From the NCBI GenBank assembly GCA_038248895.1, contig JBBRWZ010000002.1:9847-73846 (forward strand): a stretch of 64,000 nucleotides of DNA. The letters are read 5' to 3'. A program made the position numbers and the translations under genes. The notes beneath the pieces were generated by a model. The model worked only from the letters and a program-made list of their open reading frames with translations, made no database searches and had not been told where the DNA came from. Shown one piece after another: positions 47,953 through 64,000 of the stretch; the stretch's first letter is position 1; every line of letters begins with the position of its first letter. This DNA comes from Candidatus Limnocylindria bacterium (GTDB lineage Bacteria > Chloroflexota > Limnocylindria > QHBO01).

Positions 47953-47960
47953 GCACGGGA

Positions 47961-47990
47961 GTGTACACCGCGCGGCAAGTCAATCTTGAC
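47961..47990. promoter_or_regulatory. Two palindromes in the regulator/small-ORF divergent spacer: GTGTACAC and GTCAA-TC-TTGAC
   Basis: GTGTACAC occupies 47961-47968 and GTCAATCTTGAC occupies 47979-47990. On the minus strand, TACACT (47965-47960) ends 7 nt before the regulator ATG. Confidence 0.4.
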
Positions 47991-50987: not shown

Positions 50988-51082
50988 CGGTCAGGCAGGG
51001 ATCACGGCTGCGGGGCGCCGGCGGAGCTGCATGCCCCTACGATAGCGGCGCCCATGCCAGCGACACGCCCGCGCCGCCACTG

Positions 51083-51679
51083 ATGGAGATCGAGGAGCTG
51101 CTCGCCGACCCGATGGCGCAGCTCGCTGCGTGGGTCGCCGACGCGCGGCACGCCGGCAGTCGGTTGCCCGAGGCTTTTGCCCTCGCCACCGCCAGCCCCG
51201 ACGGCGCGCCATCGGTGCGCATGCTCCTCGCGCGGGGCATGGATCGTCGCGGCATCGCCTTCTTCACGAACCGGGAGAGTCGGAAGGGCCTCGAGCTCGC
51301 GGCGAACCCGCGTGGCGCCGCGACGTTCCACTGGCCGGAGCTGGAGCGCCAGGCTCGCGTGGCAGGCGGAGTGCAGGTGCTCGACGACGTGGAATCGAGC
51401 GCCTACTTCGCGACTCGCCCGCGCGGCAGCCGGATCTCGGCCTGGGCGTCCGCCCAGGGCGCACCGATCCCCGACCGACGCGCGCTGGAGACGAGCTGGT
51501 CGGCCACCGAAGCGCGCTTCCCCGGCGACGAGATCCCACTCCCGCCCTTCTGGGGTGGCTACCGCCTCCTGCCGGAGACGGTTGAGTTCTGGCAGGGGCG
51601 GCCAAGCCGCCTCCACGATCGCATCGAGTACGAGCGCACCACCGGCGACGCGTGGCGGCGGCGGCGGTTGCAGCCGTGA
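51083..51679 (+). CDS. pdxH: Pyridoxamine 5'-phosphate oxidase
   Basis: 198 aa. Carries RMLLARGMDRRGIAFFTN, ESRKG, FWGGYRL, EFWQGRPSRLHDR and a C-terminal RLQP-type ending. Confidence 0.93.
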   Translation: MEIEELLADPMAQLAAWVADARHAGSRLPEAFALATASPDGAPSVRMLLARGMDRRGIAFFTNRESRKGLELAANPRGAATFHWPELERQARVAGGVQVLDDVESSAYFATRPRGSRISAWASAQGAPIPDRRALETSWSATEARFPGDEIPLPPFWGGYRLLPETVEFWQGRPSRLHDRIEYERTTGDAWRRRRLQP

Positions 51680-52572
51680 GCGGCCACGTCATCGTCGTCG
51701 GCTCCATCAACGTCGACTTCGTGGTGCGTGCCGATCGTCTGCCGCGCCCCGGCGAGACGGTGAGCGGCGGTCGCCTCGAGGTGCATCGGGGCGGCAAGGG
51801 TGCCAACCAGGCCGTGGCCGCGGCACGCGCCGGCGCGAAGGTCGCATTCGTCGGCGCGGCGGGCAGGGATGCGTACGGCGACGCGGCGATCGGGGCGCTC
51901 CGCGATGAGGGCATCGACGTCAGCGGCATCCGCCGCACGGGCACGCCGACCGGCGCGGCGATCATCGCCGTCGGGCCGCGCGGCGAGAACCAGATCGTCG
52001 TCGCGCCCGGTGCCAATGCCGATGTCGACGTCGCCCAGCTCACCGACGAGCTGCTCCATGGCGCGACGGTGCTGCTCACCGGCTTCGAGGTACCGCCCCT
52101 GGTCGTCCTCGGCGCGGCGAAGCGCGGCACGGACGCGGGGTTGCAGGTCATCGTCAACCCCGCACCCGCGCGACCCCTGCCGGGCGAGCTCCTCGCGCTC
52201 GACCTGATCCTCACGCCGAACGAGCACGAGCTGATCGTCGCCATCGGCAACGACGACCCCGCCGCGGCGCTCACCGAGCTCGGGGGCCGCACCGCCGGCC
52301 CCGTGATCGTGACCCAGGGCGCTGCCGGCGCCCTGCTCGCCGCGAACGGACGGCGGCAGCGGTTCGACGGTCGCCCGGCGCACGATGTCGTCGACACGAC
52401 CGGCGCCGGTGACGCGTTCAACGGGGTGCTGGCCGCATGGCTGGCGCGCGGCGCCACGCTCGACGAGGCGATCGCGGCCGCGAATGTCGCCGGTTCGCTC
52501 GCCATCGGGCAGCCGGGTGCGCAGGATGGGATGCCGGACCGCGCAGCGATCGAGGCCGCCCTCGGCGACTAG
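51676..52572 (+). CDS. rbsK: Ribokinase (PfkB family)
   Basis: GTG 51676 forms a GTGA overlap with the pdxH stop. Carries VVGSINVDF, GGKGANQAVAAARAG and DTTGAGDAFNG. Confidence 0.87.
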   Translation: MSGHVIVVGSINVDFVVRADRLPRPGETVSGGRLEVHRGGKGANQAVAAARAGAKVAFVGAAGRDAYGDAAIGALRDEGIDVSGIRRTGTPTGAAIIAVGPRGENQIVVAPGANADVDVAQLTDELLHGATVLLTGFEVPPLVVLGAAKRGTDAGLQVIVNPAPARPLPGELLALDLILTPNEHELIVAIGNDDPAAALTELGGRTAGPVIVTQGAAGALLAANGRRQRFDGRPAHDVVDTTGAGDAFNGVLAAWLARGATLDEAIAAANVAGSLAIGQPGAQDGMPDRAAIEAALGD

Positions 52573-52629
52573 TGCCAATCAGTCGCATGCCATAGCATCG
52601 GGGGTGGCACCGCGAAAAGGACAGCATCC

Positions 52630-53514
52630 GTGACACTCCCCAACGATTCCAATCCCAAGCTGGCGCAGTACGCCCACCCCGAGCGGCTCGTCACCACCGA
52701 CTGGCTCGCCGAGCACCTCGACGACGCCGGCCTGGCCGTGGTCGAGTCGGACGAGGACATCCTCCTCTACGAGACCGGCCACATCCCGGGCGCGGTCAAG
52801 GTCGATTGGCACACCGAGCTCAACGACCCCGTCACCCGCGACTACCTGGATGGTGAGCGGTTTGCGGCGCTCATGCGCGACAAGGGCATCGGCCGCGACA
52901 CGACCGTCGTCTTCTACGGCGACAAGAGCAACTGGTGGGCGGCGTATGCGCTCTGGGTCTTCAGCCTCTTCGGCCATCCCGACGTGCGCCTCCTCGACGG
53001 CGGTCGCGCGAAGTGGGAGGCGGAGGGACGACCGATGACGACCGATCGGGCCAATCGGCCGGCCGCGGACTACCCGGTCGTCGAGCGTCAGGATGCGGCC
53101 ATCCGCGCCTTCCGCGACGACGTGCTCGCCCACCTCGGCCGGCCGCTCATCGACGTCCGCTCCCCCGACGAGTACGCGGGACGGCTGCTCCACATGGCGA
53201 ATTACCCGCAGGAAGGTGCGCTGCGCGGCGGCCATATCCCCGGCGCGAAGAGCGTCCCGTGGGCGAAGGCCGCCAACGAGGACGGCACCTTCAAATCGCG
53301 CGACGAGCTCGCGGCGCTGTACGAGGGCGATGCCGAGCTCGATGCCGGCGACGACGTGGTCGTCTACTGCCGCATCGGCGAACGATCGAGCCACACCTGG
53401 TTCGCGCTGACTCACCTCCTTGGCTACGAGCAGGTCCGCAACTACGACGGATCGTGGACCGAGTGGGGCAACAGCGTGCGGGTCCCGATCGAGCGGGACG
53501 CCGAACCGGCGTGA
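52630..53514 (+). CDS. Thiosulfate/3-mercaptopyruvate sulfurtransferase (tandem rhodanese domains)
   Basis: 294 aa with two rhodanese domains. The active-site loop is [14 protein letters not shown]. Confidence 0.9.
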
Positions 53515-53948
53515 CCCAGCTCGACCTGCCGGAGGCGCTCGCCGAGATCGTCGACACCTTCGCCACCTCGCCCCCGCGCGACCGCCTCGAGCTCCTGCTC
53601 GAGTACGCGCAGATGCTGCCGGCGATGCCGGAGCGCTACGCGGCGCATCGGGAGCTGCTCGAGGCGGTGCCCGAGTGCCAATCGCCACTGTTCGTGGCGA
53701 GCGAGGTGGACGCGGAGGGCCGAGTCCACCTCTTCATGGACGCCCCGCCGGAAGCGCCGACGACGCGGGGCTTCGCGGGCATCTTTCACATCGGTCTCGA
53801 CGGCGCGACCGCCGCGCAGGTGCTCGCGGTGCCAGCCGAGGTGACGACCCGGATGGCGCTCGCCGAGGTCGTCAGCCCGCTCCGCATGCGCGGCGCGTCG
53901 GCACTGCTCGGTCGTGTCCAGCGCCAGGTCCGGGACGCTTCCGCCTGA
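53511..53948 (+). CDS. SufE-like sulfur acceptor protein
   Basis: GTG 53511 forms a GTGA overlap with the rhodanese stop. 145 aa, with a SufE pattern that includes the conserved Cys in [10 protein letters not shown]. Confidence 0.85.
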
Positions 53949-54022
53949 CCGATGCCGCCGACCGCGCGGTGATGCACCGATCCGCATGCATTGCACTCGC
54001 GCCGCCATCCCCGGATCAGGCG

Positions 54023-56869
54023 TCACCACTCGACGAGCTTCCAGATCTCCGGCTGCATGGTGCTCGGCTCGCCGATCTCCGCGAAGAGGGTCACCGCGCG
54101 GCGGAGCTCCTCCATCGCCTCGGCGTCGCGTCCGGCGGCACGGAGCAGATCGGCAAGGTTGTTCCGCAGCGCCGCCTCGCGATGCAGATCGCCGCGTGCC
54201 GCGCAGAGGCGCAGTGCCGCGGCAGTGAGCTCGATCGCCGGCCCCACCGATCCGGCCTCGCGCTCGACGAGGGCGAGGTTGTTCAACGCGGCGATGCGGG
54301 CCGGTCCTGATGGAGGTGCGACGTCGAGTGCCACGCGCAGGTGGTCCCGCGCCGCATCGAGATTCCCGGCGGCACGCTCGGCCATGGCGAGGACGTTGTG
54401 GGCCTGGGCAAGGACGTCGGTGGCCCCGGCCTCGGTCGCGGCCTGCGCCGCCGCGGCGGCCAATGCGCGGGCGACACCGGCATCTCCGCGTCGCAGGCCA
54501 ATGAGGGCACGGTCGGCGAGAATCGAGCCGCGTTCGGCGTGGTCGCCCATCTCGAGCGACGCCAGCGCCGCACCCAGGTGCGCGTCGGCGACGAGCCACG
54601 CCCCGCGACGGAGGTGGACGTCCCCAAGCCGCCGCTCCAGGCGTGCCAGGTCGCGGCCGGCGGCGCGGGCGGACGCCGCCTCGTACGTCGCGACCGCCGC
54701 CGCGTAGCGGCCGAGCCGGGTCTGGAGCTCACCGATCCGCTCGCGGATTCGGCGCGGGTCACCGGGCTCGAGGGCGAGCGCCGCCTCGTAGTGCTCGAGG
54801 GCCTCGACATTGGCGAAGAGCCGTTCCGCCTCGGCAGCGGCCACGAGCAGCTGGTCGACCGCCCGCTCGTCGTCGCCCGCCTCGCGGAAGTGGGTGGCAA
54901 CGACCCCCGCCATCGACCGCGCCCCGCGCCGCCGGACGACGCCGGCGAGGGCCTCTGCCACCCGACGGTGGAGCAGCCGGCCGCGGCCGGGACCGATCGC
55001 GGCGACGACCACGTCGCGCGTCGTCTCGTGGTCGACGTCATACGAGGCATCGGACGCGGACGCGCGCAGCAGGCCGCGCGCCACGAGCTCGTCGAGCGCC
55101 GTTGCGACCTCCTCGCTGCTACGTCCGCTGACAGCGCGAACCAGGTCCGGCTCGAATGGCTGACCGATGATCGCCGCGGCGTCGAGGACCTGGCGCGCCG
55201 GTGGCGACGCCTCCTCGATGCGGGCGCGTACGAGGTCGGCAAGATCGCCCGGCACGCCCTCCAGCAGCGCCCCCCCGCCTGCGAGGTCGCCGTGCCTGAT
55301 GCGGCCAAGGTACGAGGCGACGATCGCCGGATTGCCGCCACTGCGTGCCATGAGCTGCGTCGCGAGATCGCCACCGTCGTCACCCAGCGGCCCTGCGGCG
55401 ACGAGGCGCCGGACGCCGTCCGCGGAGAGCGGCGCGAGGCGAAGCTCGACGAGCGATTCGACGCGTGCCGCCGCCCGTCGCAGCGGCGCGAGGCGCCGGG
55501 CCCCGGGATCGTCGGAGCGGGCCAGGAGGACAATCGCGAGGCATCGGTCCGGGAGCCGGCGCACCACGTAGGCGAGGACCGCCAGCGAGGCGTCGTCGAC
55601 CCACTGCGCATCGTCGACGAGGACTCCCCCGCCGGCGCCGACGGCGCGTTCGACTGCCTTGGCGAGGCCGGCGATGAACTGCACCGATCCGGCCTCATCG
55701 GTCCCGATGGCGGCGGCGGTACCACCGGGGAGGAGACGCTCGGCGGCACGGTCCGCGGCATCGACGGGCGCGGTCCCTGCAGCCTCGGGACGACTCGCGC
55801 TGAGCAGCTCGGCGACGAGGGCGAAGGGAAGCGTCCGCTCCCCCGGGTGTGCGCGGAGAGCGCGGAACGTGAGGCCGGATGCCGTCAGCGCCGCGCCGAG
55901 CTCGGCAGCGAAGCGCGTCCGTCCGATCCCGGCGGGACCCTCGATTACGACGAGGCGGCCCGCCGTGCTCGCCGTCCGGCAGGCGTCGACCGCCAGGCGC
56001 AGCGCAGCGCCGCGCTCCACGAGCGGCAGTCGATCGGCCGGAGGCGCGGCGATCGGGACCGTCGCCCCAGTCGGGATCGGCATTGACTGCCGGTCACCGG
56101 CGGCAATCCGTTCGTAGAGCTGCGTCGTCTCGGGCAGCGGCTCGACCCCGAGCTCATCGGCGAGCACCCGGACGCACGAGCGGTACTGTCGCATCGCCTC
56201 ACTGCGCTCGCCGCGCAGGGTGTGCAGCTCCATCAGCCGCCGGTGGGCCGGTTCGTGGAGCGGATCGAGGGCCACCCAGCGACGCGCATGCTCGAGCAGC
56301 ACGGTCCCGCCGTCACGGGCCGACGGATCGGGGCGTGACAGCCGATCGAGCAGCTGCGCGAGCGTCGCCTGGCGAGTCTCGGCCACCGACGCCAGCCAAT
56401 CGTCGAACTCGGGACTGTCGCGGAGGCCGAAGCCGGCGAGCAGCGGACCGCGATGCAGCGCTGCGGCGCGCTCCAGGCGTCGGCGGCACGACGGGCAGGG
56501 TGGGCCGGGATCGGCATGCCGTGCGACCTGGTCGAGGAGCCGATCCACCTCCCGGACGTCAACGTGCACCCCGAGGCCGTCGACAGCGAGAAGGCGCCCG
56601 CTCGCCGCCGGCCACGCCCCGCCCAGCCCCGCGCGCGTCACCGACAGCGTCCGACGCAGCGCGGACCCGGCGTGCACGTCGTCGAGCTCCGGCCAGAGCA
56701 GCGTCTGCACCTGGTCACGCGACTGCGGCCCGGCGCCGAGCGCGAGCACGGCGAGGAGCGCAACCGCCTTCCGGGTATCGAACTGGACGGGTGTCCCGTC
56801 GAGGTCCACGAGGGGCGTCCCGAGCAGCCGCAGCCGAAGGTCCGGAACGTGGACGCGGTTGCTGGTCAT
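54023..56869 (-). CDS. SARP/AfsR-like regulator: winged-helix + BTAD + P-loop NTPase (degenerate Walker A) + C-terminal TPR
   Basis: Start ATG 56869 gives 948 aa. The N-terminal OmpR-type DNA-binding region is LRLRLLGTPLVDLDG...LLWPE. The BTAD region is HEPAHRRLMELHTLRGERSEAMRQYRSCVRVLADELGVEP. The NTPase P-loop is GPAGIGRT. The C-terminus carries TPR repeats. Confidence 0.88.
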   Translation of the reverse strand: MTSNRVHVPDLRLRLLGTPLVDLDGTPVQFDTRKAVALLAVLALGAGPQSRDQVQTLLWPELDDVHAGSALRRTLSVTRAGLGGAWPAASGRLLAVDGLGVHVDVREVDRLLDQVARHADPGPPCPSCRRRLERAAALHRGPLLAGFGLRDSPEFDDWLASVAETRQATLAQLLDRLSRPDPSARDGGTVLLEHARRWVALDPLHEPAHRRLMELHTLRGERSEAMRQYRSCVRVLADELGVEPLPETTQLYERIAAGDRQSMPIPTGATVPIAAPPADRLPLVERGAALRLAVDACRTASTAGRLVVIEGPAGIGRTRFAAELGAALTASGLTFRALRAHPGERTLPFALVAELLSASRPEAAGTAPVDAADRAAERLLPGGTAAAIGTDEAGSVQFIAGLAKAVERAVGAGGGVLVDDAQWVDDASLAVLAYVVRRLPDRCLAIVLLARSDDPGARRLAPLRRAAARVESLVELRLAPLSADGVRRLVAAGPLGDDGGDLATQLMARSGGNPAIVASYLGRIRHGDLAGGGALLEGVPGDLADLVRARIEEASPPARQVLDAAAIIGQPFEPDLVRAVSGRSSEEVATALDELVARGLLRASASDASYDVDHETTRDVVVAAIGPGRGRLLHRRVAEALAGVVRRRGARSMAGVVATHFREAGDDERAVDQLLVAAAEAERLFANVEALEHYEAALALEPGDPRRIRERIGELQTRLGRYAAAVATYEAASARAAGRDLARLERRLGDVHLRRGAWLVADAHLGAALASLEMGDHAERGSILADRALIGLRRGDAGVARALAAAAAQAATEAGATDVLAQAHNVLAMAERAAGNLDAARDHLRVALDVAPPSGPARIAALNNLALVEREAGSVGPAIELTAAALRLCAARGDLHREAALRNNLADLLRAAGRDAEAMEELRRAVTLFAEIGEPSTMQPEIWKLVEW

Positions 56870-56959
56870 GATCACCAACAGCGTGGCGGATCGGTTCGCG
56901 CTCCGCAATTGACCGATCATCGGAGACCGTAACGATCACCGAACGCCGCACCGCGTAGC

Positions 56960-58207
56960 ATGCTGCGGGTGACCTCCCTACCGCAGCGAACGACCCCGTC
57001 GCGCCGCGGCGCCCCGCTCGTGCTGAGCCTCGCCCTGATCGGCGTCCTCCTGGGGGTCGGCTCGGTGGCGGTCCTGTGGGCCACCGCAACGGACCAGGTG
57101 CCCGGACTGCTCCTTTATCTCGCCGTCTTCGGAGTCCTGCTCGTCACGTACCCGCTGCTGGGAGCGCTCATTGCCGTGCGCCGTCCGGCGGAGCCGTTCG
57201 GATGGATCTTTCTCGCCGTCGGGCTGGGCCTTGGCATCAGCGTCTTCGGCAGCGCCTACCTCGAGCTGTCGTTCGCGACGCCGCGACCGCTGCCGCTGGC
57301 CGCATGGTTCGGCTGGTTCCCAGAGTGGCTCTCGGTGGCGTCGATCATCGGCGGCATCGTCTCGCTGCTGCTCCTCTACCCGACCGGCCGTCTTCCGTCC
57401 CCCGGATGGCGCCGCTTCGCCATCGCCGGCGCCGTCGTCATCACGATCCAGACCATTGCCACCGCGCTGGCGGTCGAGGTCGTCGGCACCAAGCCGCACC
57501 TGGCGGCGAGCCCGATGCTTGCCCTTCCGGAATCGGTCCGCGCCGTCGCCGACGTCGCCGCCGCCATCGGGACCCCGGCCATCTTCGTCATCGCGATCGC
57601 CAGCCTCGTGGCGATCTGGCGCCGCTTCCGCCGCTCGAGCGGCGTGGAGCGTCAACAGCTGAAGTGGCTCGCGTGGGTGGCGATCCCCATGGTCATCGGC
57701 TTCCTCGTCGCGCCGCCGTATCCGATTGCCGGCTGGGACGTGGTCGCCTCCATCGGCTGGGCGGTGGGGATCATCGGTCTGGCGGCAATTCCGCTGGTCA
57801 CCACGATCGCGATCCTGCGGCACGGGCTGTGGGAGATCGACACCATCATCAATCGAACGCTCGTCTACGGCGCCCTCAGCGCGGTGCTGGCCGCGATGTA
57901 CGCTGCCACCGTGCTGGCGCTGCAGGGTCTCCTCGACCAGGTCGCGCCGGACGACACGCTCGCGGTCGCGGCGTCGACGCTCCTCGTGGTCGCTGCCTTC
58001 GGACCTGTTCGGCGACGGATCCAGCATGCCGTTGACCGACGCTTCTATCGGTCCCGGTACGACGCCGGCCGGGTCATCGCGGCGTTCAGCGCCCAGCTGC
58101 GCGACGACCTCGACCCCGATGCGGTGGCTTCGCTGACGCTGCGCACCGCGCGACAGACGGTGCAGCCGCGCAGCACGAGCCTCTGGCTGCGCCCCACTGA
58201 CCGATGA
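56960..58207 (+). CDS. Polytopic membrane protein resembling the N-terminal sensor module of actinobacterial-type histidine kinases, but without kinase domains (paralogue 1)
   Basis: 415 aa with about 8-10 TM helices. Conserved blocks are LLYPTGRLPSPGWRR, GVERQQLKW, AILRHGLWEIDTIINRTLVYG and FGPVRRRIQHAVDRRFYRSRYDA...TVQPRSTSLWLRP. It ends 4 aa after WLRP. Confidence 0.75.
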   Translation: MLRVTSLPQRTTPSRRGAPLVLSLALIGVLLGVGSVAVLWATATDQVPGLLLYLAVFGVLLVTYPLLGALIAVRRPAEPFGWIFLAVGLGLGISVFGSAYLELSFATPRPLPLAAWFGWFPEWLSVASIIGGIVSLLLLYPTGRLPSPGWRRFAIAGAVVITIQTIATALAVEVVGTKPHLAASPMLALPESVRAVADVAAAIGTPAIFVIAIASLVAIWRRFRRSSGVERQQLKWLAWVAIPMVIGFLVAPPYPIAGWDVVASIGWAVGIIGLAAIPLVTTIAILRHGLWEIDTIINRTLVYGALSAVLAAMYAATVLALQGLLDQVAPDDTLAVAASTLLVVAAFGPVRRRIQHAVDRRFYRSRYDAGRVIAAFSAQLRDDLDPDAVASLTLRTARQTVQPRSTSLWLRPTDR

Positions 58208-59400
58208 GACATCTCGATGATCGGAGCGCGCGCATTGCCGGCCGGGTCGCCCTCGTCGCCTGTCTCGGGCTCGCCGTGCCAGCGGTCGGGTTCCTCTTCG
58301 TGCCACCCCGTGCAGGGGCCCCGGGCGCGGAGGTCACAGCGTTCCAGGCGATCGCCGACGGGACCCTGGTGCTCCTGACGCCGACGATGGGTTACCTCAT
58401 CCTCCTCCGACAGCCACACAGCCGGATCGGATGGTTGTTCATCGCCTTTCCCGGACTCCTCGCCCTCGGGTTCATGGGCGATGGCCTGGCGCGCCACCTG
58501 CCCGCCTCGCCGGCGCTGGGACTCGTGACGACGCTCCTGGCCGCCTTGAGCAACGCGTGGTTCCTGACCATCTTCATGCTTGTCCTTCTCTTCCCCACCG
58601 GGCAGCTCACGCACCCACGCTGGCGTCGGCTGCTCGTTGTGCTGGTCGTCCAGGTGATTGCGCTTGGCGCCATCCAGGTCGTCAGCGTCCTCCCCTACCC
58701 CGACCTCCCCGATCTGCGGAATCCCATCGCGGTCCCCGCGTGGCGGGAAACGCTCGACGTCCTGAACGCGGTGGTCGGCCTCTCCTTCGTTCCCACCGCC
58801 ATCGCCGCGATCGCGCAGCTGGCGGGACGCATGCGCGTAGCGCGCGGGGTCGAGCGCCAGCAGCTCAAGTGGTTCGTCCTCGCCGCGAGCGTCAGCGCCG
58901 GGCTGCTCGCCGCGGCGGCGCTGACGATCCCGGTCCCATCGATTTCCAACATCCTCTGGCCACTCGCGCTCACATCGCTCCTCCTCCTCCCCGTGACCAC
59001 GGCATTCGCGATTCTCCGTCACGGCCTCTTCGACATCGACCTCGTCATCAACCGCACCCTCGTCTACGGCTCGCTCTCGGTGATGCTGGCGGCGACGTAC
59101 AGCGCGGCGGTGCTCGTCCTTTCACTCCTGGTCACGCCGCTCACCGGGAACAGCCAGGTCGCCGTCGCCGTGGCGACGCTCGTCACGGTCGCGCTCTTCG
59201 GTCCGCTGCGGCGTCGCGTACAGGCGGGTGTCGACCGACGCTTCTACCGGTCCCGCTACGACGCCGCCCGCGTCGTGGCGCGCTTCGGCAGCCGATTGCG
59301 CGATGAGGTGGAACTCGACATGGTGGCCGGAACACTTATCGGCGCCGTCAGCGAGACGGTGCAACCAACATCGGTCCGGGTTTGGCTGCGGCCGTCGTAA
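58204..59400 (+). CDS. Paralogous kinase-less sensor-like membrane protein (paralogue 2)
   Basis: 398 aa, sharing an ATGA overlap with paralogue 1. It has the same blocks (LLFPTGQLTHPRWRR, GVERQQLKW, AILRHGLFDIDLVINRTLVYG, FGPLRRRVQAGVDRRFYRSRYDA...TVQPTSVRVWLRPS). Confidence 0.75.
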   Translation: MRHLDDRSARIAGRVALVACLGLAVPAVGFLFVPPRAGAPGAEVTAFQAIADGTLVLLTPTMGYLILLRQPHSRIGWLFIAFPGLLALGFMGDGLARHLPASPALGLVTTLLAALSNAWFLTIFMLVLLFPTGQLTHPRWRRLLVVLVVQVIALGAIQVVSVLPYPDLPDLRNPIAVPAWRETLDVLNAVVGLSFVPTAIAAIAQLAGRMRVARGVERQQLKWFVLAASVSAGLLAAAALTIPVPSISNILWPLALTSLLLLPVTTAFAILRHGLFDIDLVINRTLVYGSLSVMLAATYSAAVLVLSLLVTPLTGNSQVAVAVATLVTVALFGPLRRRVQAGVDRRFYRSRYDAARVVARFGSRLRDEVELDMVAGTLIGAVSETVQPTSVRVWLRPS

Positions 59401-59484
59401 CGATCCGGGAACGCCCAGCGCCTACAACGGTCTCGACAGGACCGATGACGTGCTCATCAGCAACGCCGCCCTGACACGGAGACC

Positions 59485-59994
59485 ATGATGCCCAGGGTTA
59501 CCCGTTTCCTCGCTCTCCTCCTGGCCGCCGCCGTCATGACGGCCTGCAGCGCCGCCGGTGCCACCGCCAGCCCGACCGCTACCGCCGTCGAGAGCACATC
59601 GGCCGCCAGCGGCGATACCATTACCGTCACCGGCCGCGACTATGCATTCGACGGCCTACCGGACACCGTACCGGTGGGGACGCAGCTCGCCTTCACGAAC
59701 GCGTCGACCGACGAGGTGCACCTCCTGGTGGTGGTCCGCAAGAACGACGACGTGTCGCGAACGCTCGAGGACCTGTTGAAGAACGGGACCGAGGAGGAGC
59801 AGCAGACGATGACGACCGAAGCCGGCGAGCTCGAGGCGATGCCCGGGGGCGACGCCGACGGCACGATCACCCTCGATGAGCCGGGTGAGTACCTGGCCCT
59901 GTGTCCGATCCCGGTAGGCTCGATGGCCTCGCCGGACGAGACCGCCGTGCCCCACTTCATGAAGGGCATGTACCAGTCCTTCACGGTCGAGTAG
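59485..59994 (+). CDS. Lipoprotein with cupredoxin-like domain (putative)
   Basis: The lipobox is LLLAAAVMTAC. The pattern TITVTGRDYAFDG...VPVGTQLAFTNASTDEVHLLVV...PGEYLALCPIP...HFMKGMYQSFTV resembles small blue-copper/cupredoxin-like proteins (H...C...H...M). GGAG sits at 59478-59481. The start is ATG 59485 or 59488. Confidence 0.6.
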   Translation: MMPRVTRFLALLLAAAVMTACSAAGATASPTATAVESTSAASGDTITVTGRDYAFDGLPDTVPVGTQLAFTNASTDEVHLLVVVRKNDDVSRTLEDLLKNGTEEEQQTMTTEAGELEAMPGGDADGTITLDEPGEYLALCPIPVGSMASPDETAVPHFMKGMYQSFTVE

Positions 59995-60035
59995 ACGGTG
60001 ACGGGCGGCGCGCGCGAGCAGGGATCGCGACGGTG

Positions 60036-61613
60036 ATGGTGCTCGGACAGGTCTGGCGACGCGTTGCCAACCGCCGCGTCGCGGATGCCGGGGCGCCGCT
60101 CGAGGCCATCGTCGAAGCCCCGCTCGAGGCTGCGCCGGCGGTCGAGATCCCGGAGAAGGATCCCCTGCTCCCGTATCTCGCCGCCGCGTCGGGGCCGGTG
60201 GACCTCGAGACCCTCGCCCTCGACACCCCGGCCGTCGCCCGGCTGCGCGCGGCCGGGGTCCGGCTCGTGGTGCCACTGGTGAGCTCCGGCGAACTGATCG
60301 GGACCCTCAACCTGGGACCGCGACTCTCGGAGCAGGACTACTCCTCGGACGACCGGCGCCTCCTCGACTCGCTCGCCGCGCAGGCGGCGCCGGCCCTGCG
60401 CGTGGCGCAGCTCGTGCGGCAGCAGGAGGCGGAGGCGCGCGAGCGACAGCGGATCGAGCAGGAGCTCCAGGTGGCGCAGCTCATCCAGCAGCACTTCCTC
60501 CCCGTCGATCTCCCCCAGCCGAGCGGCTGGAGCGTCGAGGCCTTCTACCGGCCGGCGCGCGCCGTCGGCGGCGACTTCTACGACGTCGTCGAGCGCCCCG
60601 ACGGGACGCTCGCCTTTGCCGTCGGGGACGTGACGGACAAGGGCGTTCCCGCGGCGATGGTCATGGCCGCCACGCGATCGTTGCTTCGTGCCGCGGGCGA
60701 GTCGCTGCGTGACCCCGGGGCGATCCTCGCCCAGGTCAACACGCTCCTCCACGGCGACATCCCGTCGCGGATGTTCGTCACCTGCCTCTATGGGATCCTC
60801 GACCCGCGGACCGGCGAGCTGCGCTTTGCCAACGCGGGACACAACCTGCCGTTCCTCCGCGGCGCTGATGGCACCGTCGAGCTGCGCGCCACGGGGATGC
60901 CGCTCGGCCTCCTGCCGGGGATGCGCTACGACGAGACGCGGGCGCGGATGGAGCCCGGCACGCAGCTGCTGCTGCACAGCGACGGCATCGCCGAGGCGCA
61001 CGATCCCGCCCGTCAGATGTTCGGCATCCCGCGCCTGGAGCAGGTGGTCGATGGCGCAGCCGAGCGGCGCGGCGGCCTCATCGGTGCCGTTCTCGCCGAG
61101 CTCGAGCAGTTCACGGGACCGGGCTGGGAGCAGGAGGACGACATCACGCTCGTCGCGCTCAGCTGGGACGGGTCGCAGCCGGCGACGGTCCTGCTCGAGA
61201 CCGAGATCCCGTCAGCGCCGGGCAACGAACGCCGCGCGATGCGCGCGGTCGCCGATGCCGTCGCCGGCGCCGGCCTCACGAAGCCGCAGCTCGACAGGCT
61301 CGGCACCGCCGTCGCCGAGGCGACGATGAACGCCATCGAGCACGGCAACCACAACAATCCGGAGTTGGCAATCTCGCTGCGGGTCTTCCGCGACGGCGAC
61401 GTCCTCACCGTGCAGATCGTCGACGTCGGCGGGCCCGACAGCATCCCGATCACCGAGACGCCCGACATCGAGGCGAAGCTGCGCGGCGAGCAGAAGCCAC
61501 GCGGCTGGGGGCTGTTCCTGATCCAGCAGCTCGTGGACGGGATGCGCGAGACGACCATCGACGGCCGTCACGCGGTGGAGCTCATCGTGCGCATCGCGAG
61601 GGAGCCGGCATGA
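60036..61613 (+). CDS. Fusion protein: partial GAF-like region + PP2C (SpoIIE/RsbU-type) phosphatase + RsbW/SpoIIAB-type HATPase kinase domain
   Basis: PP2C motifs are GGDFYD, VGDVTDKGVPAA, HSDGI and DDITLVAL. The C-terminal GHKL N-box is EATMNAIEHGN and the G-box is RGWGLFLIQQLVD. The start is ATG 60036 (GTG 60033 is possible). The tracked start 59901 overlaps the upstream gene and is Arg-rich junk. Confidence 0.88.
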   Translation: MVLGQVWRRVANRRVADAGAPLEAIVEAPLEAAPAVEIPEKDPLLPYLAAASGPVDLETLALDTPAVARLRAAGVRLVVPLVSSGELIGTLNLGPRLSEQDYSSDDRRLLDSLAAQAAPALRVAQLVRQQEAEARERQRIEQELQVAQLIQQHFLPVDLPQPSGWSVEAFYRPARAVGGDFYDVVERPDGTLAFAVGDVTDKGVPAAMVMAATRSLLRAAGESLRDPGAILAQVNTLLHGDIPSRMFVTCLYGILDPRTGELRFANAGHNLPFLRGADGTVELRATGMPLGLLPGMRYDETRARMEPGTQLLLHSDGIAEAHDPARQMFGIPRLEQVVDGAAERRGGLIGAVLAELEQFTGPGWEQEDDITLVALSWDGSQPATVLLETEIPSAPGNERRAMRAVADAVAGAGLTKPQLDRLGTAVAEATMNAIEHGNHNNPELAISLRVFRDGDVLTVQIVDVGGPDSIPITETPDIEAKLRGEQKPRGWGLFLIQQLVDGMRETTIDGRHAVELIVRIAREPA

Positions 61614-61990
61614 CCGATCCAACGACCGATCCGACGACCGCGCAGGTGGCCGCTCCCTTCCGCGCCACGCTGCGGGCCGGCACCGCCCTCGACGTCCTCG
61701 ACCTCAGCGGGGAGCTCGACGGCGCCGCCGCCGAGGCACTCACCAGCGCATTCGACGCGTCCCGCGCGCCGGTAGTGCTGCTGAACTTCGAGCGCGTTGG
61801 CTACATGAACAGCACCGGCATCGCGATCGTTGTCGAGCTCCTGGCCCGCGCGCAGGCCGACGGGCGGCGGATCGCCGCCTGCAACCTCTCCGCGCACTAC
61901 CTCCAGATCTTCGAGATCACCCGGCTCTCCGACTTCATCACCATCCACCCGAACGAGGCAGCAGCGCTGGCCGCATCTGCGGCGAGCTGA
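61610..61990 (+). CDS. STAS-domain anti-sigma-factor antagonist-like protein 1
   Basis: 126 aa, sharing an ATGA overlap with the upstream fusion gene. Carries LDLSGELDG and the phosphorylatable loop GYMNSTGIA. Confidence 0.88.
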   Translation: MTDPTTDPTTAQVAAPFRATLRAGTALDVLDLSGELDGAAAEALTSAFDASRAPVVLLNFERVGYMNSTGIAIVVELLARAQADGRRIAACNLSAHYLQIFEITRLSDFITIHPNEAAALAASAAS

Positions 61991-62003
61991 GGAGACCACG
62001 ATC

Positions 62004-62336
62004 ATGGACGTCCGCCACCCTACCGATCGCGTCAGCATCATCGACATCTCCGGCGAGCTGACCGGAGCGAGCGAGGACGCGCTCATGGACGCGTACCGGC
62101 TCGCGAGCCGTCCCGGGACGCGGGCCATCGCCCTGAACTTCGCGGACCTCGACTACATGAACAGCACCGGCATCGGTCTCCTCGTCACACTCCTCGTCCG
62201 GGCGAATCGCCAGCGCGAGCGGCTCCTCGCCTACGGCCTCACCGAGCATTACCGCGAGATCTTCTCGCTCACCCGGCTCGACGAGGCGATCAGCATCGTC
62301 GAGAGCGAGGCTGACGTCCTCGCCGCGGCCGCCTGA
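62004..62336 (+). CDS. STAS-domain anti-sigma-factor antagonist-like protein 2
   Basis: ATG 62004 lies 9 nt after GAGGAG (61989-61994). 110 aa. Carries IDISGELTG and DYMNSTGIG. Confidence 0.88.
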   Translation: MDVRHPTDRVSIIDISGELTGASEDALMDAYRLASRPGTRAIALNFADLDYMNSTGIGLLVTLLVRANRQRERLLAYGLTEHYREIFSLTRLDEAISIVESEADVLAAAA

Positions 62337-62374
62337 CCGATGCCATCGCGGATCATCTGTCCCACACCGTCCGC

Positions 62375-63811
62375 GTGACGCCCGGCAATCACCTCGACGC
62401 CGTCGTCGTCGGTGCCGGCCCGAACGGGCTCGCCGCTGCGATCGCGCTCCAGCGCGCCGGACGGCAGGTCCACGTCATCGAGGCGGACGAGCGCATCGGT
62501 GGCGGCTGCCGGACGGCCGACCTGACACTCCCCGGCTTTCATCACGACGTCTGCAGCGCGGTCCACCCGCTCGGCCGCAGCTCCCCCTTCTTCGCTTCCC
62601 TGCCCCTCGAGCGCCACGGCCTGCACTGGATCGAGTCGCCGGTCGAGATGGCGCACCCGCTCGACGGTGGACGCGCCGCGCTCGTCCTGCGCGATGTCGA
62701 CGCCACCGCCAATGGCCTCGGCCGGGACGCCGGGCGCTACCGGGCCCTGGTCGGCCAGCCATCACGGGCATGGGCCACCATCGCGCGCGACCTGCTGGGC
62801 CCGCTCCGCCCGTTCCGTGCCCTGCGGCACCCGCTGACATCGGTGGGCCTCGCGGCCCGCGGCATCCTCCCCACCGCGGCCCTGGTACGGGCATTCCGCA
62901 CCGAGGAGGCGCGCGCCATCCTGGCCGGCGTCAGCGCGCATTCGATGCTGCCGCTCGACGCCCTTGCGACGGGGATGTTCGGAACGACCCTGCTCGCGAG
63001 CGCCCATGCCGTCGGCTGGCCGATCCCCGCCGGTGGCAGCCAGGCGATCGTCGATGCGCTCGCTGCACACCTCGTGGAGCTCGGCGGCTCGATCGAAACC
63101 GGGATGCGGATCGAGCGCATGGGGCAACTGCCCTCTCACCGTGCCGCGTTGCTCGACGTCACGCCACGCCAGCTCCTCGCCATCGCCGGCGACCGCATCC
63201 GCGGGGCGTATGCGGCACAGCTGCGCCGCTTCCGCTACGGGCCGGGTGTCTTCAAGCTCGACCTCGCCCTCGACGGCCCGGTGCCGTGGACGAACCCGCG
63301 CGTCGGCGACGCGATCACCGTCCACGTCGGCGGCACGTACGAGGAGATCGCCACCTCGGAACACGCGGTCCACCGCGGCCGCGTCAGCGACCGTCCCTTC
63401 GTGCTGGTCGCCCAGCCGTCGCGCTTCGACCCGACGCGGGCGCCGGCCGGGAAGCACACGCTGTGGGCGTACTGTCACGTACCGCCGGGCGCGGAGACCG
63501 ACATGACGGAGCCGATCCTGCGCCAGATCGAGCGCTTCGCGCCGGGCTTCAGGGATTTGATCATCGGTCGCCACGCCATCGGTCCGGCCGCCATGGAGGC
63601 GTACAACGCGAATTATGTCGGCGGCGACATCAACGGCGGCCTCCAGTCGCTCGCCCAGTTCGTGACCCGCCCCGCCGTCCGCCTCGACCCGTACTCGACC
63701 CCGGATCCGGGGATCTTCATCTGCTCCTCGTCGACCCCGCCGGGCGGTGGCGTTCATGGGCTGTGCGGCGCGCACGCCGCCGCGAGCGCGCTGCGTGATG
63801 TGCTCGCCTGA
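62375..63811 (+). CDS. NAD(P)/FAD-dependent oxidoreductase of the phytoene desaturase (CrtI/CrtD-like) family
   Basis: GTG start. 478 aa. The dinucleotide-binding motif is VVVGAGPNGLAAAIAL...VIEADERIGGG. The C-terminus carries GGGVHG, typical of this family. Confidence 0.87.
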   Translation: MTPGNHLDAVVVGAGPNGLAAAIALQRAGRQVHVIEADERIGGGCRTADLTLPGFHHDVCSAVHPLGRSSPFFASLPLERHGLHWIESPVEMAHPLDGGRAALVLRDVDATANGLGRDAGRYRALVGQPSRAWATIARDLLGPLRPFRALRHPLTSVGLAARGILPTAALVRAFRTEEARAILAGVSAHSMLPLDALATGMFGTTLLASAHAVGWPIPAGGSQAIVDALAAHLVELGGSIETGMRIERMGQLPSHRAALLDVTPRQLLAIAGDRIRGAYAAQLRRFRYGPGVFKLDLALDGPVPWTNPRVGDAITVHVGGTYEEIATSEHAVHRGRVSDRPFVLVAQPSRFDPTRAPAGKHTLWAYCHVPPGAETDMTEPILRQIERFAPGFRDLIIGRHAIGPAAMEAYNANYVGGDINGGLQSLAQFVTRPAVRLDPYSTPDPGIFICSSSTPPGGGVHGLCGAHAAASALRDVLA

Positions 63812-63862
63812 CGGCCGCCGTGCCGTAACGATTGCGGGACGCGCCATCGCCACCATCGGTCC

Positions 63863-64000
63863 ATGAGCAGTCGCATGGAGCCGACACCGATGCAGTCCGA
63901 ACCGTCCGCACCTCCCGAGACGCCCGCCGGTCGCCGCCGCGATACCGATGCTTGGGCACGACCTATCACGCGGCTGCACGTCGCCGCACGGACCGATGGC
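63863..64000 (+). CDS. Possible start of a CDS running off the window (unknown product)
   Basis: From ATG 63863, 46 sense codons stay open to the window end (MSSRMEPTPMQSEPSAPPETPAGRRRDTDAWARPITRLHVAARTDG). There is no clear SD and no family is recognised. Confidence 0.3.
   Translation, partial: MSSRMEPTPMQSEPSAPPETPAGRRRDTDAWARPITRLHVAARTDG

What the first reader, a model, noticed from the sequence alone, without database searches (positions are those of the whole stretch)
54023..63811. Sigma-less sensory cluster: SARP/NTPase/TPR regulator divergent from two kinase-less sensor membranes, a cupredoxin-like lipoprotein, a PP2C::RsbW fusion, two STAS proteins and a flavoprotein
Seen in sequence:
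- A 948-aa SARP-type regulator is divergent (90-nt spacer) from seven same-strand genes. Those genes are joined by 4-nt overlaps (58204, 61610) or gaps of 85 nt or less.
- The seven genes are two paralogous polytopic membrane proteins, a lipoprotein with an H...C...H...M pattern, a PP2C phosphatase fused to an RsbW-type kinase domain, two STAS proteins and a CrtI-like flavoprotein.

Established: PP2C + RsbW-type kinase + STAS constitutes a partner-switching module. Its classical output is an alternative sigma factor bound by the kinase.

No sigma factor, histidine kinase or response regulator is encoded anywhere in this 10-kb block.

Inference: this is an envelope-signal (possibly redox/copper) pathway. 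Stand-alone sensor modules would feed a partner switch with a non-sigma output, possibly the SARP regulator or the flavoprotein. I do not recognise this combination as a described system.
Basis: partly seen in the sequence, partly recalled or inferred. Interest (0 to 1): 0.65.

Follow-up and report, generated by a model that had tools for sequence, protein, structure and literature searches.

The report
Conserved SARP-controlled multi-sensor partner-switch cassette
The block is one copy of an apparently undescribed signalling gene cassette shared by Actinomycetota and Chloroflexota, in which arrays of stand-alone membrane proteins, a fused phosphatase/kinase, two STAS proteins and two enzyme-like proteins all sit behind one conserved promoter box that has the geometry of a SARP activator site.

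Summary

- **Conservation.** The same gene set recurs in about 25 loci from Actinomycetota and Chloroflexota. It comprises an AfsR-type SARP, 1-11 tandem 10-helix membrane paralogues (MEM), a GAF-remnant::PP2C::RsbW-type kinase, two STAS proteins, a DUF1990-like protein (X) and usually the flavoprotein.
- **Promoter box (new).** CGTAACGAT-N4-GGACG occurs three times in the 64-kb window, each time before a cassette gene. It is two 11-bp-spaced repeats 8-9 bp from a -10 hexamer, which is the published SARP geometry. Start codons commonly fall at the predicted transcription start.
- **Orphan MEM genes** elsewhere carry the same box.
- **Split GAF domain.** MEM proteins end in the first helix and strand of a GAF domain, and the phosphatase starts with the remainder. 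Rare natural fusions are contiguous. An AlphaFold model did not confirm docking.
- **No sigma factor** is encoded in any annotated copy.
- **The cupredoxin lipoprotein** is unique to this window, so a copper or redox signal is unsupported.

Signal, physical coupling and output remain inferred.

The parts
54023..56869 (-). AfsR-type 'large SARP' regulator (winged-helix region + BTAD + NOD/AAA_16 + TPR), 948 aa from ATG 56869. The open frame extends to 56920.
   Evidence: Pfam BTAD 2e-19, AAA_16 3e-12, TPR_12 1e-11. Full-length orthologues (E 1e-120 to 1e-219) lie divergent to the MEM array in most related loci. The conserved motif DTRKA..ALLA...LLWP...ALRRTLS is in the DNA-binding region. The Walker A motif is GPAGIGRT, against GxxGxGK[TS] in 25 of 25 orthologues.
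56928..56961 (+). Promoter P1: box CGTAACGATcaccGAACG (56928-56945) plus a -10-like TAGCAT (56956-56961). The predicted start is about 56968.
   Evidence: The 9-mer occurs 3 times in the window against 0.14 expected. Box geometry and the -10 hexamer are conserved over 91 instances. The same box lies in the SARP-MEM spacer of L002, L004, L030, L071, L082 and L084.
56960..58207 (+). MEM1, a 10-helix membrane protein. It has a variable membrane core, a conserved cytoplasmic face and a C-terminal GAF-N fragment (helix 384-400 and QP..SLWLRP). The likely true start is GTG 56969.
   Evidence: More than 3,678 homologues, almost all stand-alone and about 400 aa. Family size is 13,185 clusters at E<=1e-30. 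AlphaFold2 model pLDDT 84, pTM 0.75. No significant PDB fold match. Conservation profile.
58204..59400 (+). MEM2, a paralogue of MEM1 (35-37% identity) with the same C-terminal DRRFYRSRYDA...VWLRPS tail.
59396..59428 (+). Promoter P2: box CGTAACGATccggGAACG (59396-59413, overlapping the MEM2 stop codon) plus a -10-like TACAAC (59423-59428). The leader to the lipoprotein ATG is about 50 nt.
   Evidence: The homologous box lies directly before the phosphatase-kinase gene, or the accessory gene preceding it, in 27 instances.
59485..59994 (+). Cupredoxin-like lipoprotein. It is an accessory gene specific to this window.
   Evidence: phmmer against PDB 6KOL 'Blue (Type 1) copper domain protein', E=6.4e-7, with His and Cys aligned. 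The signal peptide and the Cys of LAAAVMTAC are read from the sequence. It is absent from all 26 related loci.
60036..61613 (+). PP2CK: an N-terminal basic helix and linker, a GAF remnant (GAF profile positions about 41 to the end), a long linker helix, a PP2C/SpoIIE phosphatase and an RsbW-type HATPase_c_2 kinase. It is 525 aa (alternative start GTG 60033).
   Evidence: Pfam. Orthologues are 60-73% identical across phyla and are 520-545 aa. The metal-binding Asp motifs (GGDFYD, GDVTDKG, HSDG, EDDIT) and the kinase N- and G-boxes (EATMNAIEHGN, DVGG, GWGL) are read from the sequence.
61610..61990 (+). STAS1, an anti-sigma-antagonist-type protein with the phosphorylation motif YMNSTGI.
   Evidence: Pfam STAS 4.7e-12 and TIGR00377 1e-15. 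The Ser is invariant in 23 of 23 orthologues.
62004..62336 (+). STAS2, a second and distinct STAS orthologue group, also with YMNSTGI.
   Evidence: Pfam STAS 1.6e-10. The Ser is invariant in 25 of 25 orthologues.
62375..63811 (+). FAD-dependent oxidoreductase (amine-oxidase / CrtI-CrtO-like superfamily). It is a conserved cassette member.
   Evidence: Pfam and NCBIfam. Orthologues score E 1e-140 to 1e-209 in 16 of 26 loci, most of the rest being truncated contigs. It is absent next to the Kribbella cassettes.
63824..63856 (+). Promoter P3: box CGTAACGATtgcgGGACG (63824-63841) plus a -10-like CACCAT (63851-63856). The ATG of X lies at offset 39, the predicted start, so the mRNA is predicted to be leaderless.
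   Evidence: Homologous boxes precede X in L004, L006, L016 and L083.
63863..64000 (+). 5' end of X, a DUF1990-like protein of about 240 aa that is conserved in the cassette. It is cut off by the window end.
   Evidence: The N-terminal RDTDAWARPITRLHVAA matches the N-terminus of X orthologues. X is present, sometimes duplicated, in 19 of 26 loci. DUF1990 matches weakly in 9 of 15 orthologues, best 1e-7.

Best explanation
This is one copy of a conserved, self-contained signalling cassette. The proposed mechanism has four steps.

1. The AfsR-type SARP/NOD/TPR protein activates three promoters in the window: before MEM1, before the lipoprotein/phosphatase-kinase operon, and before X. It would do so by binding a two-repeat box (CGTAACGAT-N4-GGACG) that takes the place of the -35 element. 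In related loci many of these transcripts are predicted to be leaderless.

2. The MEM paralogues are interchangeable input modules. Their membrane core varies, while their cytoplasmic loops and C-terminal tail are conserved. The tail corresponds to the first helix and strand of a GAF domain.

3. The MEM proteins act on the GAF remnant at the N-terminus of the bifunctional PP2C phosphatase / RsbW-type kinase, possibly by completing that domain in trans. Through the long linker helix this would shift the balance between dephosphorylation and phosphorylation of the invariant serine of the two STAS proteins.

4. The unphosphorylated STAS proteins then act on a non-sigma target encoded in the cassette. 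The most likely target is the NOD/TPR part of the SARP, which would close an autoregulatory loop. The alternative target is the X/flavoprotein pair.

Shown: gene content, conservation, domain boundaries, the box, its geometry and its distribution.

Inferred: that the SARP binds the box, that MEM proteins touch the phosphatase-kinase, the nature of the signal, and the STAS target.
For: - Cassette conservation across two phyla, seen from both the MEM side and the phosphatase side.
- The core proteins are far better conserved than the sensors: PP2CK 60-73% identity against about 40% for MEM.
- MEM copy number varies from 1 to 11 per array.
- MEM cytoplasmic loops and tail have entropy 0.6-1.3 bits, against 2.2-3.2 bits for the helices and outer loops.
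- PP2CK alone matches GAF profiles only from position about 41. The natural fusion L037 and the in-silico junction of the MEM1 tail with the PP2CK N-terminus match positions 1-133 of 133, and the score rises from 32.8 to 42.3 bits.
- MEM and PP2CK map colinearly on the PrsK profile, at positions 96-347 and 405-471.
- Both STAS groups keep the phosphorylatable Ser. The catalytic motifs of both enzymatic domains are present.
- Box statistics: 3 in the window against 0.14 expected; 94 against 5 in a reversed-sequence control, with 79 of 94 directly upstream of cassette genes, including orphan MEM genes.
- Box geometry: repeats 11 bp apart; a -10 hexamer at fixed distance (A at position 2 in 76 of 91, T at position 6 in 61 of 91); start codon at offset 39-42 in 42 of 82. 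This is the published SARP geometry (PMC10936776).
- No sigma gene appears in the annotated copies.
- Published precedents: GAF-linker-PPM regulation (PMC12143880); dual kinase/phosphatase plus STAS with a non-sigma target (PMC8256260); AfsR activity modulated through its NOD and TPR domains (PMC10936776).
Against: - The AlphaFold2 model of a natural fusion fragment did not place the MEM tail strand into the GAF sheet. The tail had pLDDT below 50 and was modelled as helices plus coil. In the MEM1 model the last 15 residues are disordered.
- Stand-alone PP2CK proteins carry their own conserved N-terminal basic helix, which might replace the missing GAF piece.
- No tool here tests protein-protein or protein-DNA contacts.
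- The window's SARP has Arg instead of the Walker A Lys.
- The flavoprotein is missing next to the Kribbella cassettes.
- Many partner-switch modules in actinobacteria act on sigma factors encoded elsewhere (my own knowledge).
- MEM outer loops are short, so nothing indicates what is sensed.
Confidence: 0.5

Rival explanations
1. This is a classical partner switch whose sigma factor is encoded elsewhere. The kinase domain of PP2CK would sequester an alternative sigma factor and the STAS proteins would release it. The SARP would merely control expression of the module.
For: The kinase domain is of the RsbW/SpoIIAB type (NCBIfam spIIAB 7e-8, RsbW 2e-4). The STAS proteins match the anti-sigma-antagonist superfamily. 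Orphan modules acting on distant sigma factors are common in actinobacteria (my own knowledge). An ECF sigma gene lies next to one orphan MEM gene, in L019.
Against: No sigma gene lies in or next to the cassette in the window or in L002, L083 or L084. Seven other families are co-conserved. Fused phosphatase-kinase proteins such as SypE act through STAS on non-sigma targets (PMC8256260). The box spacing does not fit a sigma -35/-10 pair: 21 nt from CGTAAC to the -10 hexamer.
Confidence: 0.2
2. The cassette is mainly a membrane-associated enzymatic or transport pathway. X and the flavoprotein, perhaps together with the MEM proteins, would make or modify a hydrophobic compound such as an isoprenoid, carotenoid-like molecule or quinone. 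The partner switch would regulate an enzyme rather than transcription, and the MEM proteins would not be sensors for the phosphatase.
For: X and the flavoprotein are adjacent and overlap by 4 nt in L083. The flavoprotein is CrtI/CrtO-like. SRPBCC lipid-binding proteins are frequent accessory genes. A partner-switch-like module is reported to regulate a glycosyltransferase in Anabaena (PMC13555669, abstract).
Against: MEM proteins resemble the input part of sensor kinases and end in a GAF fragment. Natural MEM-GAF-PAS-PP2C fusions exist. MEM conservation is concentrated on the cytoplasmic face, not in a membrane-embedded site. The flavoprotein is dispensable in Kribbella.
Confidence: 0.2
3. The MEM tail is only an evolutionary leftover of a gene fission. 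MEM proteins and PP2CK are co-regulated but do not form a split GAF domain, and coupling, if any, runs through other surfaces or other proteins.
For: AlphaFold2 did not dock the tail. PP2CK has its own conserved N-terminal helix. Eleven orphan MEM genes lie with no cassette component within about 10 kb on either side.
Against: The tail is among the most conserved parts of a family that is otherwise about 40% identical: F362, R364, Y367, P403 and W409 are invariant in 116 sequences. A GAF domain lacking its first helix and central strand is unlikely to be stable alone (my own knowledge of the GAF fold). Orphan MEM genes keep both the tail and the box.
Confidence: 0.25

Closest known systems
RsbU/RsbV/RsbW and SpoIIE/SpoIIAA/SpoIIAB partner-switching modules
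   Same: A PP2C phosphatase, an RsbW-type serine kinase and a STAS substrate with a conserved phosphoserine motif.
   Different: Phosphatase and kinase are fused. There are two STAS proteins. No sigma factor is encoded nearby. The input comes from membrane proteins and a GAF remnant rather than from RsbT or the stressosome.
Fused phosphatase-kinase regulators: SypE/SypA (Vibrio fischeri), Rv1364c (M. tuberculosis), OsaC (S. coelicolor)
   Same: Both activities sit in one protein that acts on STAS partners. SypA acts on an unknown non-sigma target (PMC8256260). Rv1364c and OsaC carry PAS/GAF inputs joined to the PPM domain by a helical linker (PMC12143880).
   Different: The domain order and the input differ. 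Here the input is a truncated GAF, with no REC or PAS domain. The tight association with MEM arrays, a SARP, X and a flavoprotein is not reported for any of them.
AfsR (S. coelicolor), a large SARP with NOD and TPR domains
   Same: The same SARP+NOD+TPR architecture. The target box consists of direct repeats 11 bp apart overlapping the -35 region, about 8 bp from the -10 hexamer (PMC10936776). AfsR activity is modulated through its NOD and TPR domains and by Ser/Thr phosphorylation (PMC10936776).
   Different: The box sequence differs. The regulon is a signalling cassette rather than afsS or antibiotic genes. The family extends to Chloroflexota. The window copy has a Walker A Lys-to-Arg change.
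PrsK / HisKA_7TM-type membrane sensor histidine kinases
   Same: The MEM proteins align with the membrane part, and the PP2CK N-terminus aligns with the GAF part, of the PrsK profile in colinear order. A few MEM homologues carry PF16927.
   Different: There is no HisKA or HATPase_c kinase core. The polypeptide is cut inside the GAF domain, and the output is a PP2C/kinase on a separate protein. All scores are far below the family cut-offs.
Stressosome (RsbR paralogues, RsbS, RsbT)
   Same: The logic is similar: several paralogous sensors with variable sensing parts and a conserved docking part feed one PP2C-based partner switch (comparison from my own knowledge).
   Different: The sensors here are integral membrane proteins without STAS domains. 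No RsbS or RsbT homologues are present. This is an analogy only.

Membership tests
Partner-switching module (RsbU/V/W type) | PP2C (SpoIIE/PPM) phosphatase domain with metal-binding aspartates | tested here: met
   PF07228 2.2e-49, full length. GGDFYD, GDVTDKG, HSDG and EDDIT are read in the sequence.
Partner-switching module (RsbU/V/W type) | RsbW/SpoIIAB-type serine kinase (HATPase_c_2) with N- and G-boxes | tested here: met
   PF13581 2.5e-18. NCBIfam spIIAB 7e-8, below its cut-off. Motifs are read in the sequence.
Partner-switching module (RsbU/V/W type) | STAS antagonist with a conserved phosphorylatable serine | tested here: met
   PF01740 in both proteins. The Ser of Y-[IM]-N-S-x-G-I is invariant in 23 of 23 and 25 of 25 orthologues.
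Partner-switching module (RsbU/V/W type) | A cognate sigma factor bound by the kinase, usually encoded alongside | tested here: not met
   No Sigma70 domain appears in the block or its neighbours or in the annotated loci L002, L083 and L084. A sigma factor encoded elsewhere cannot be excluded with these tools.
Large SARP (AfsR type) | OmpR-type winged-helix region plus BTAD (the SARP domain) | tested here: inconclusive
   BTAD 2e-19. The N-terminal region has the conserved motif DTRKA..ALLA..LLWP..ALRRTLS. Pfam Trans_reg_C was not reported at E<=0.01.
Large SARP (AfsR type) | NOD/STAND NTPase and TPR sensor domains | tested here: met
   AAA_16 3e-12 and TPR_12 1e-11. The Walker A motif is GPAGIGRT, a Lys-to-Arg change, unlike 25 of 25 orthologues.
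Large SARP (AfsR type) | Target promoters with direct repeats 11 or 22 bp apart, the 3' repeat about 8 bp from the -10 hexamer | tested here: met
   Box geometry over 91 instances compared with PMC10936776. Binding by this SARP is inferred and was not tested.
GAF domain | A complete domain covering the whole profile on one polypeptide | tested here: not met
   PP2CK matches profile positions 41-129, 48-133 and 90-135 only. The full profile (1-133) is matched only by the natural fusion L037 or by joining the MEM1 tail to PP2CK. The Foldseek hits of the fusion model are GAF domains, but they are weak and partial.
Sensor histidine kinase (PrsK / HisKA_7TM) | HisKA and HATPase_c transmitter after the membrane and GAF input | tested here: not met
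   No HisKA or HATPase_c in the MEM proteins. The TIGR02916 match covers the membrane part only, at 22.7 bits against a cut-off of 300.
Cupredoxin (type-1 copper protein) | His...Cys...His...Met ligand set on a cupredoxin fold | tested here: inconclusive
   6KOL E=6.4e-7 with the first His and the Cys aligned. A downstream His and Met exist (PHFMKGM), but in an unusually long loop outside the alignment. No structure was modelled.
DUF1990 (PF09348) | A Pfam profile match above threshold | tested here: inconclusive
   9 of 15 X orthologues match, best E 1.1e-7. A precomputed 'weak' hit is recorded in L083. Only 46 residues of X lie inside the window.
Known anti-phage defence systems | A match to PADLOC models | tested here: not met
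   There are no hits apart from a Rossmann-only match of the flavoprotein.

The most novel reading that the evidence does not exclude
A signalling domain is split between genes as a design principle. Thousands of stand-alone membrane receptors would each carry only the first helix and strand of a GAF domain. They would compete to complete, in trans, the GAF remnant of a single phosphatase/kinase. An expandable array of receptors (1-11 per locus, plus orphans in the same regulon) would thus converge on one partner switch, whose output is an AfsR-type SARP instead of a sigma factor.
Probability: 0.3. Interest if true: 0.85.

Novelty: new variant of a known kind. Interest (0 to 1): 0.68.

Why it matters
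- **A large uncharacterised family gains a context.** The MEM family has 13,185 clusters at 50% identity at E<=1e-30 and about 45,000 at E<=1e-3. It has no Pfam model and no structural relative. The cassette gives it a functional setting and a co-regulated partner set.
- **The role of large SARPs widens.** They would extend from antibiotic regulation in Streptomyces to a conserved signalling regulon that also occurs in Chloroflexota, with a sequence-defined operator that can be tested directly.
- **A model for non-sigma partner switching.** The cassette offers a tractable case of a partner switch without a sigma factor.
- **A possible split sensory domain.** If confirmed, it would show a sensory domain divided between a receptor gene and a transducer gene.
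- **Practical use.** The box gives a simple way to define the regulon in any genome.

Tried and rejected
- **AlphaFold2 of a natural fusion fragment** (P0246, with an alignment of tails and N-termini). The MEM tail was not docked into the GAF sheet and had low confidence, so the split-GAF idea is neither confirmed nor refuted. No prediction jobs remained for a window chimera.
- **Foldseek of the MEM1 model against the PDB.** Only generic helix-bundle hits appeared (E>0.02, TM 0.2-0.36 normalised to the query). No relation to GPCRs or rhodopsins is claimed.
- **Sequence profiles of MEM and X against the PDB.** Nothing was found.
- **PADLOC.** No defence-system match.
- **Rfam at E<=1 over 53000-64000.** Nothing, so the box is not a known RNA family.
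- **Sigma-70 promoter and terminator consensus scan.** Nothing.
- **Reading the box as an ECF or other sigma -35/-10 pair.** Rejected: no conserved element lies 16-19 nt upstream, and the distance to the -10 hexamer is 21 nt.
- **Reading the downstream conserved block as a Shine-Dalgarno site.** Considered, and true for a few loci (AAGGAG). However, the conserved A at position 2 and T at position 6, and start codons at the predicted transcription start, favour a -10 hexamer.
- **Repeat search in the 90-nt spacer.** Uninformative on its own.
- **Recovering the rest of the source contig.** This failed: only a 4-kb Logan contig was returned for MEM1, and the PP2CK protein was not on record. Cluster look-up gave no names, so the organism is unidentified.
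- **Whole-protein MAFFT of MEM plus PP2CK proteins.** It misaligned and was replaced by trimmed sequences.
- **Apparent long MEM hits.** P0002 and P0004 are merged calls of adjacent paralogues, not domain fusions.
- **Looking for a constant partner next to orphan MEM genes.** The neighbours are heterogeneous.
- **In-frame stop between the last MEM gene and PP2CK.** A single in-frame stop separates them in four loci. This is not above the one-in-three chance expectation and was not pursued.

Full report
**1. What is in the window**

- a 948-aa SARP-type regulator with BTAD, AAA_16 and TPR domains (54023-56869, minus strand);
- two paralogous membrane proteins, MEM1 (56960-58207) and MEM2 (58204-59400);
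- a lipoprotein (59485-59994);
- a SpoIIE/PP2C::HATPase_c_2 fusion, called PP2CK here (60036-61613);
- two STAS proteins (61610-61990 and 62004-62336);
- an amine-oxidase/CrtI-like flavoprotein (62375-63811).

The lipoprotein matches the blue-copper protein 6KOL (E=6e-7) with one His and the Cys ligand aligned. The upstream neighbours are a PfkB kinase, a rhodanese, LigD and an HTH-TPR protein. They are unrelated to the block and include no sigma factor.

**2. The block is a conserved cassette**

MEM1 has more than 3,678 homologues. Nearly all are stand-alone proteins of about 400 aa, and the best non-self match is only 40-45% identical.
- A 1.88-Mb metagenomic contig shows the same layout: a divergent BTAD-AAA_16-TPR gene, eight tandem MEM genes, an SRPBCC gene, GAF-SpoIIE-HATPase_c_2, and two STAS genes.
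- A scan of species-representative genomes with a MEM profile returned 80 loci.
- I annotated these loci with the window's proteins. Among the 26 loci that hold a PP2CK orthologue, 96% hold MEM genes (1-11 copies), 81% hold each STAS type, 73% hold X (described below), 69% hold the SARP and 62% hold the flavoprotein. Most absences are at contig ends. The Kribbella loci do lack the flavoprotein.
- The loci come from Rubrobacteraceae, Solirubrobacterales, Nocardioidaceae (Nocardioides, Kribbella, Marmoricola), Limnocylindria, Chloroflexia, Thermomicrobiales and Ktedonobacteraceae.
- Starting instead from PP2CK orthologues gives the same cassette.
- PP2CK is 60-73% identical across these phyla and is almost always 520-545 aa. 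A conserved core therefore combines with diversified MEM proteins.
- The cupredoxin lipoprotein occurs in none of the 26 loci. Its position is empty or holds an SRPBCC protein.

**3. A ninth gene**

Between STAS2 and the flavoprotein, almost every locus has a conserved gene of about 240 aa, X, which is sometimes duplicated. X has no strong Pfam match, but 9 of 15 orthologues hit DUF1990 weakly. In the window X lies after the flavoprotein. An ATG at 63863 opens a frame whose product (…RDTDAWARPITRLHVAA…) matches the X N-terminus and runs off the window end.

**4. The MEM proteins**

- The AlphaFold2 model of MEM1 (116-sequence alignment, pLDDT 84, pTM 0.75) has ten membrane helices, a long cytoplasmic helix, a short helix at 386-400 and a disordered last 15 residues.
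- The model has no significant PDB fold match, and the family has no sequence relative in the PDB.
- Conservation is concentrated on the predicted cytoplasmic loops (FPxGRLPSPRWR, RFRRxRGxERQQLKW, ILRHxLYDIDxxINRTLVY), on helix 10 and on the tail DRRFYRSRYDA…QP…SLWLR. Entropy there is 0.6-1.3 bits, against 2.2-3.2 bits for helices 1-8 and the outer loops.
- The family is very large: 13,185 clusters at 50% identity at E<=1e-30. Of the best 150 hits, 145 are stand-alone proteins of about 380-470 aa.

**5. A GAF domain divided between two genes**

- PP2CK alone matches the three Pfam GAF profiles only from position about 41-48 to the end. Only about 30 residues (a basic helix and an Ala/Glu-rich linker) lie upstream of the match.
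- NCBIfam's PrsK profile aligns MEM1 to positions 96-347 and PP2CK to positions 405-471, which is a colinear order.
- A Rubrobacter locus (L037) encodes a natural MEM-GAF-PAS-PP2C fusion. Its junction matches the GAF profiles end to end.
- Joining the MEM1 tail to the PP2CK N-terminus in silico has the same effect. The PF01590 match becomes 1-133 of 133 and the score rises from 32.8 to 42.3 bits.
- Such fusions are rare.
- The MEM tail therefore corresponds to the first helix and strand of a GAF domain, and PP2CK carries the remainder.

Whether the two pieces reassemble is not shown. In an AlphaFold2 model of a fusion fragment the remnant is confident (pLDDT above 90) and has a 50-residue linker helix. 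The tail, however, is not placed in the sheet. The model's Foldseek hits are partial GAF domains. The linker helix fits the published general model of GAF/PAS-linker-PPM regulation (PMC12143880).

**6. The switch itself**

Both enzymatic domains of PP2CK keep their catalytic motifs. STAS1 and STAS2 form two distinct orthologue groups, and both have an invariant Ser in Y-[IM]-N-S-x-G-I. Fused phosphatase-kinase proteins acting on STAS partners are already known: SypE/SypA, with a non-sigma target (PMC8256260), and Rv1364c and OsaC (PMC12143880). This part of the cassette is therefore not new in kind.

**7. A conserved promoter box**

- The 9-mer CGTAACGAT occurs exactly three times in the 64-kb window, at 56928, 59396 and 63824. 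All three are on the plus strand and all precede a cassette gene. Chance expectation is 0.14, and no shuffle out of 100 reached three.
- The same motif lies in the SARP-MEM spacer and directly before PP2CK, or before the accessory gene that precedes it, in loci of both phyla.
- With up to two mismatches to CGTAACGAT-N4-GGACG there are 94 boxes in 1.23 Mb, against 5 in a reversed-sequence control. Of these, 79 lie directly upstream of cassette genes: MEM 45, PP2CK 27, X 5, the lipoprotein 1 and the SARP 1. The MEM group includes many orphan MEM genes far from any cassette.
- The box is two direct repeats with an 11-bp period (GTAACG and GGGACG).
- At offsets 27-32 a hexamer shows T in 47 of 91, A in 76 of 91 at position 2, and T in 61 of 91 at position 6, in DNA of 67% G+C. 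This is a -10 element 8-9 bp after the 3' repeat.
- The first long-ORF start codon falls at offsets 39-42 in 42 of 82 cases, and at exactly 39 in 24. This is where transcription should start, which predicts leaderless mRNAs.
- The geometry is the one published for SARP promoters and for the afs box of AfsR (PMC10936776).
- No Rfam family matches the region.

I infer that the neighbouring SARP binds the box. Its DNA-binding region carries a conserved motif across the orthologues. In the window this gives three transcription units:
- MEM1-MEM2, with MEM1 probably starting at GTG 56969;
- lipoprotein-PP2CK-STAS1-STAS2-flavoprotein;
- X.

**8. Interpretation**

Shown:
- a cassette of seven protein families plus a cis-element, conserved across two phyla;
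- the domain boundaries;
- intact catalytic and phosphorylation motifs;
- no sigma factor gene encoded in the cassette.

Inferred:
- the SARP drives the regulon;
- the MEM proteins are inputs that act on the PP2CK N-terminus;
- the STAS proteins act on a non-sigma target, either the SARP's NOD/TPR part or the X/flavoprotein pair.

AfsR is known to be controlled through its NOD and TPR domains and by Ser/Thr phosphorylation (PMC10936776), so a SARP is a plausible end point. The signal is unknown. The copper/redox idea depends on a gene that is unique to this window.

The rivals all remain open:
- a sigma factor encoded elsewhere;
- a mainly enzymatic role for X, the flavoprotein and the MEM proteins;
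- co-regulation of MEM and PP2CK without physical coupling.

**9. Novelty**

Searches of the paper library for the combination found no description, and neither PADLOC nor NCBIfam names it. The individual families are known. The architecture, the box and the divided GAF domain appear to be new. I rate it a new variant of a known kind (partner switching under a SARP), with interest 0.68.

Noticed in passing
window 55825-55848 (-), Walker A motif of the SARP: The NOD Walker A motif reads GPAGIGRT, with Arg in place of the canonical Lys. All 25 orthologues examined have GxxGxGK[TS]. ATP handling by this copy may be altered.
   Followed up: partly
window 56956-56971: The annotated ATG of MEM1 (56960) overlaps the predicted -10 hexamer TAGCAT. 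An in-frame GTG at 56969 sits at the predicted transcription start, at offset 41 like the other boxes. This suggests a leaderless mRNA and a protein three residues shorter.
   Followed up: partly
L021 9782, L023 9761, L039 9764, L048 9809, L049 9764, L078 8311, L079 9956 and others: Orphan MEM genes with no other cassette gene within 10 kb still carry the box directly upstream. They appear to belong to the same regulon. Their other neighbours are heterogeneous: a chaperonin, hydrolases, an ion channel, a LuxR-type STAND regulator and, in L019, an ECF sigma factor.
   Followed up: partly
L004 2442-2446, L047 14596-14600, L071 11032-11036, L082 12213-12217; protein P0245: In four loci the last MEM gene and PP2CK are in the same frame, separated by one stop codon and about four codons. 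P0245 is a called protein that reads through such a junction. This could be chance, since the expectation is one in three, or a trace of the gene fission.
   Followed up: partly
PP2CK residues 1-20 (window 60036-60095) and orthologues: Stand-alone PP2CK proteins share a basic N-terminal helix (consensus MTALTQALRRVIRRRER) followed by an Ala/Glu/Pro-rich linker. The helix is missing from the tight natural fusions (L037, P0246). It might be a docking or membrane-contact element that replaces the covalent link.
   Followed up: no
L020 11408-12760 (-), L051 8260-9519 (-), L068 5139-7565 (+): Other PP2C proteins lie beside MEM genes in Rubrobacteraceae loci. Two are SnoaL-like::SpoIIE proteins divergent from a MEM gene, and one is a CHASE::SpoIIE::HATPase_c_2 protein.
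   Followed up: partly
L046 4155-5685, L047 17012-18590, L062 16181-17699, L075 1081-2628, L042 804-2344: X is duplicated in tandem in several cassettes. In L083 and L016 an extra X copy, together with a small gene of about 135 aa and its own box, sits inside the MEM array.
   Followed up: no
L084 4725-4743: Two boxes lie back to back (CGTTACG a CGTAACG) between divergent MEM genes, forming a palindromic double promoter.
   Followed up: no
window 46654-47979 (-) and 48324-50990 (-): An HTH_3::TPR regulator and a full-length LigD (phosphoesterase, ligase and primase-polymerase domains) lie upstream of the cassette. A PfkB kinase (51586-52572) and a double-rhodanese protein (52573-53514) follow them. 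None recurs in related loci.
   Followed up: no
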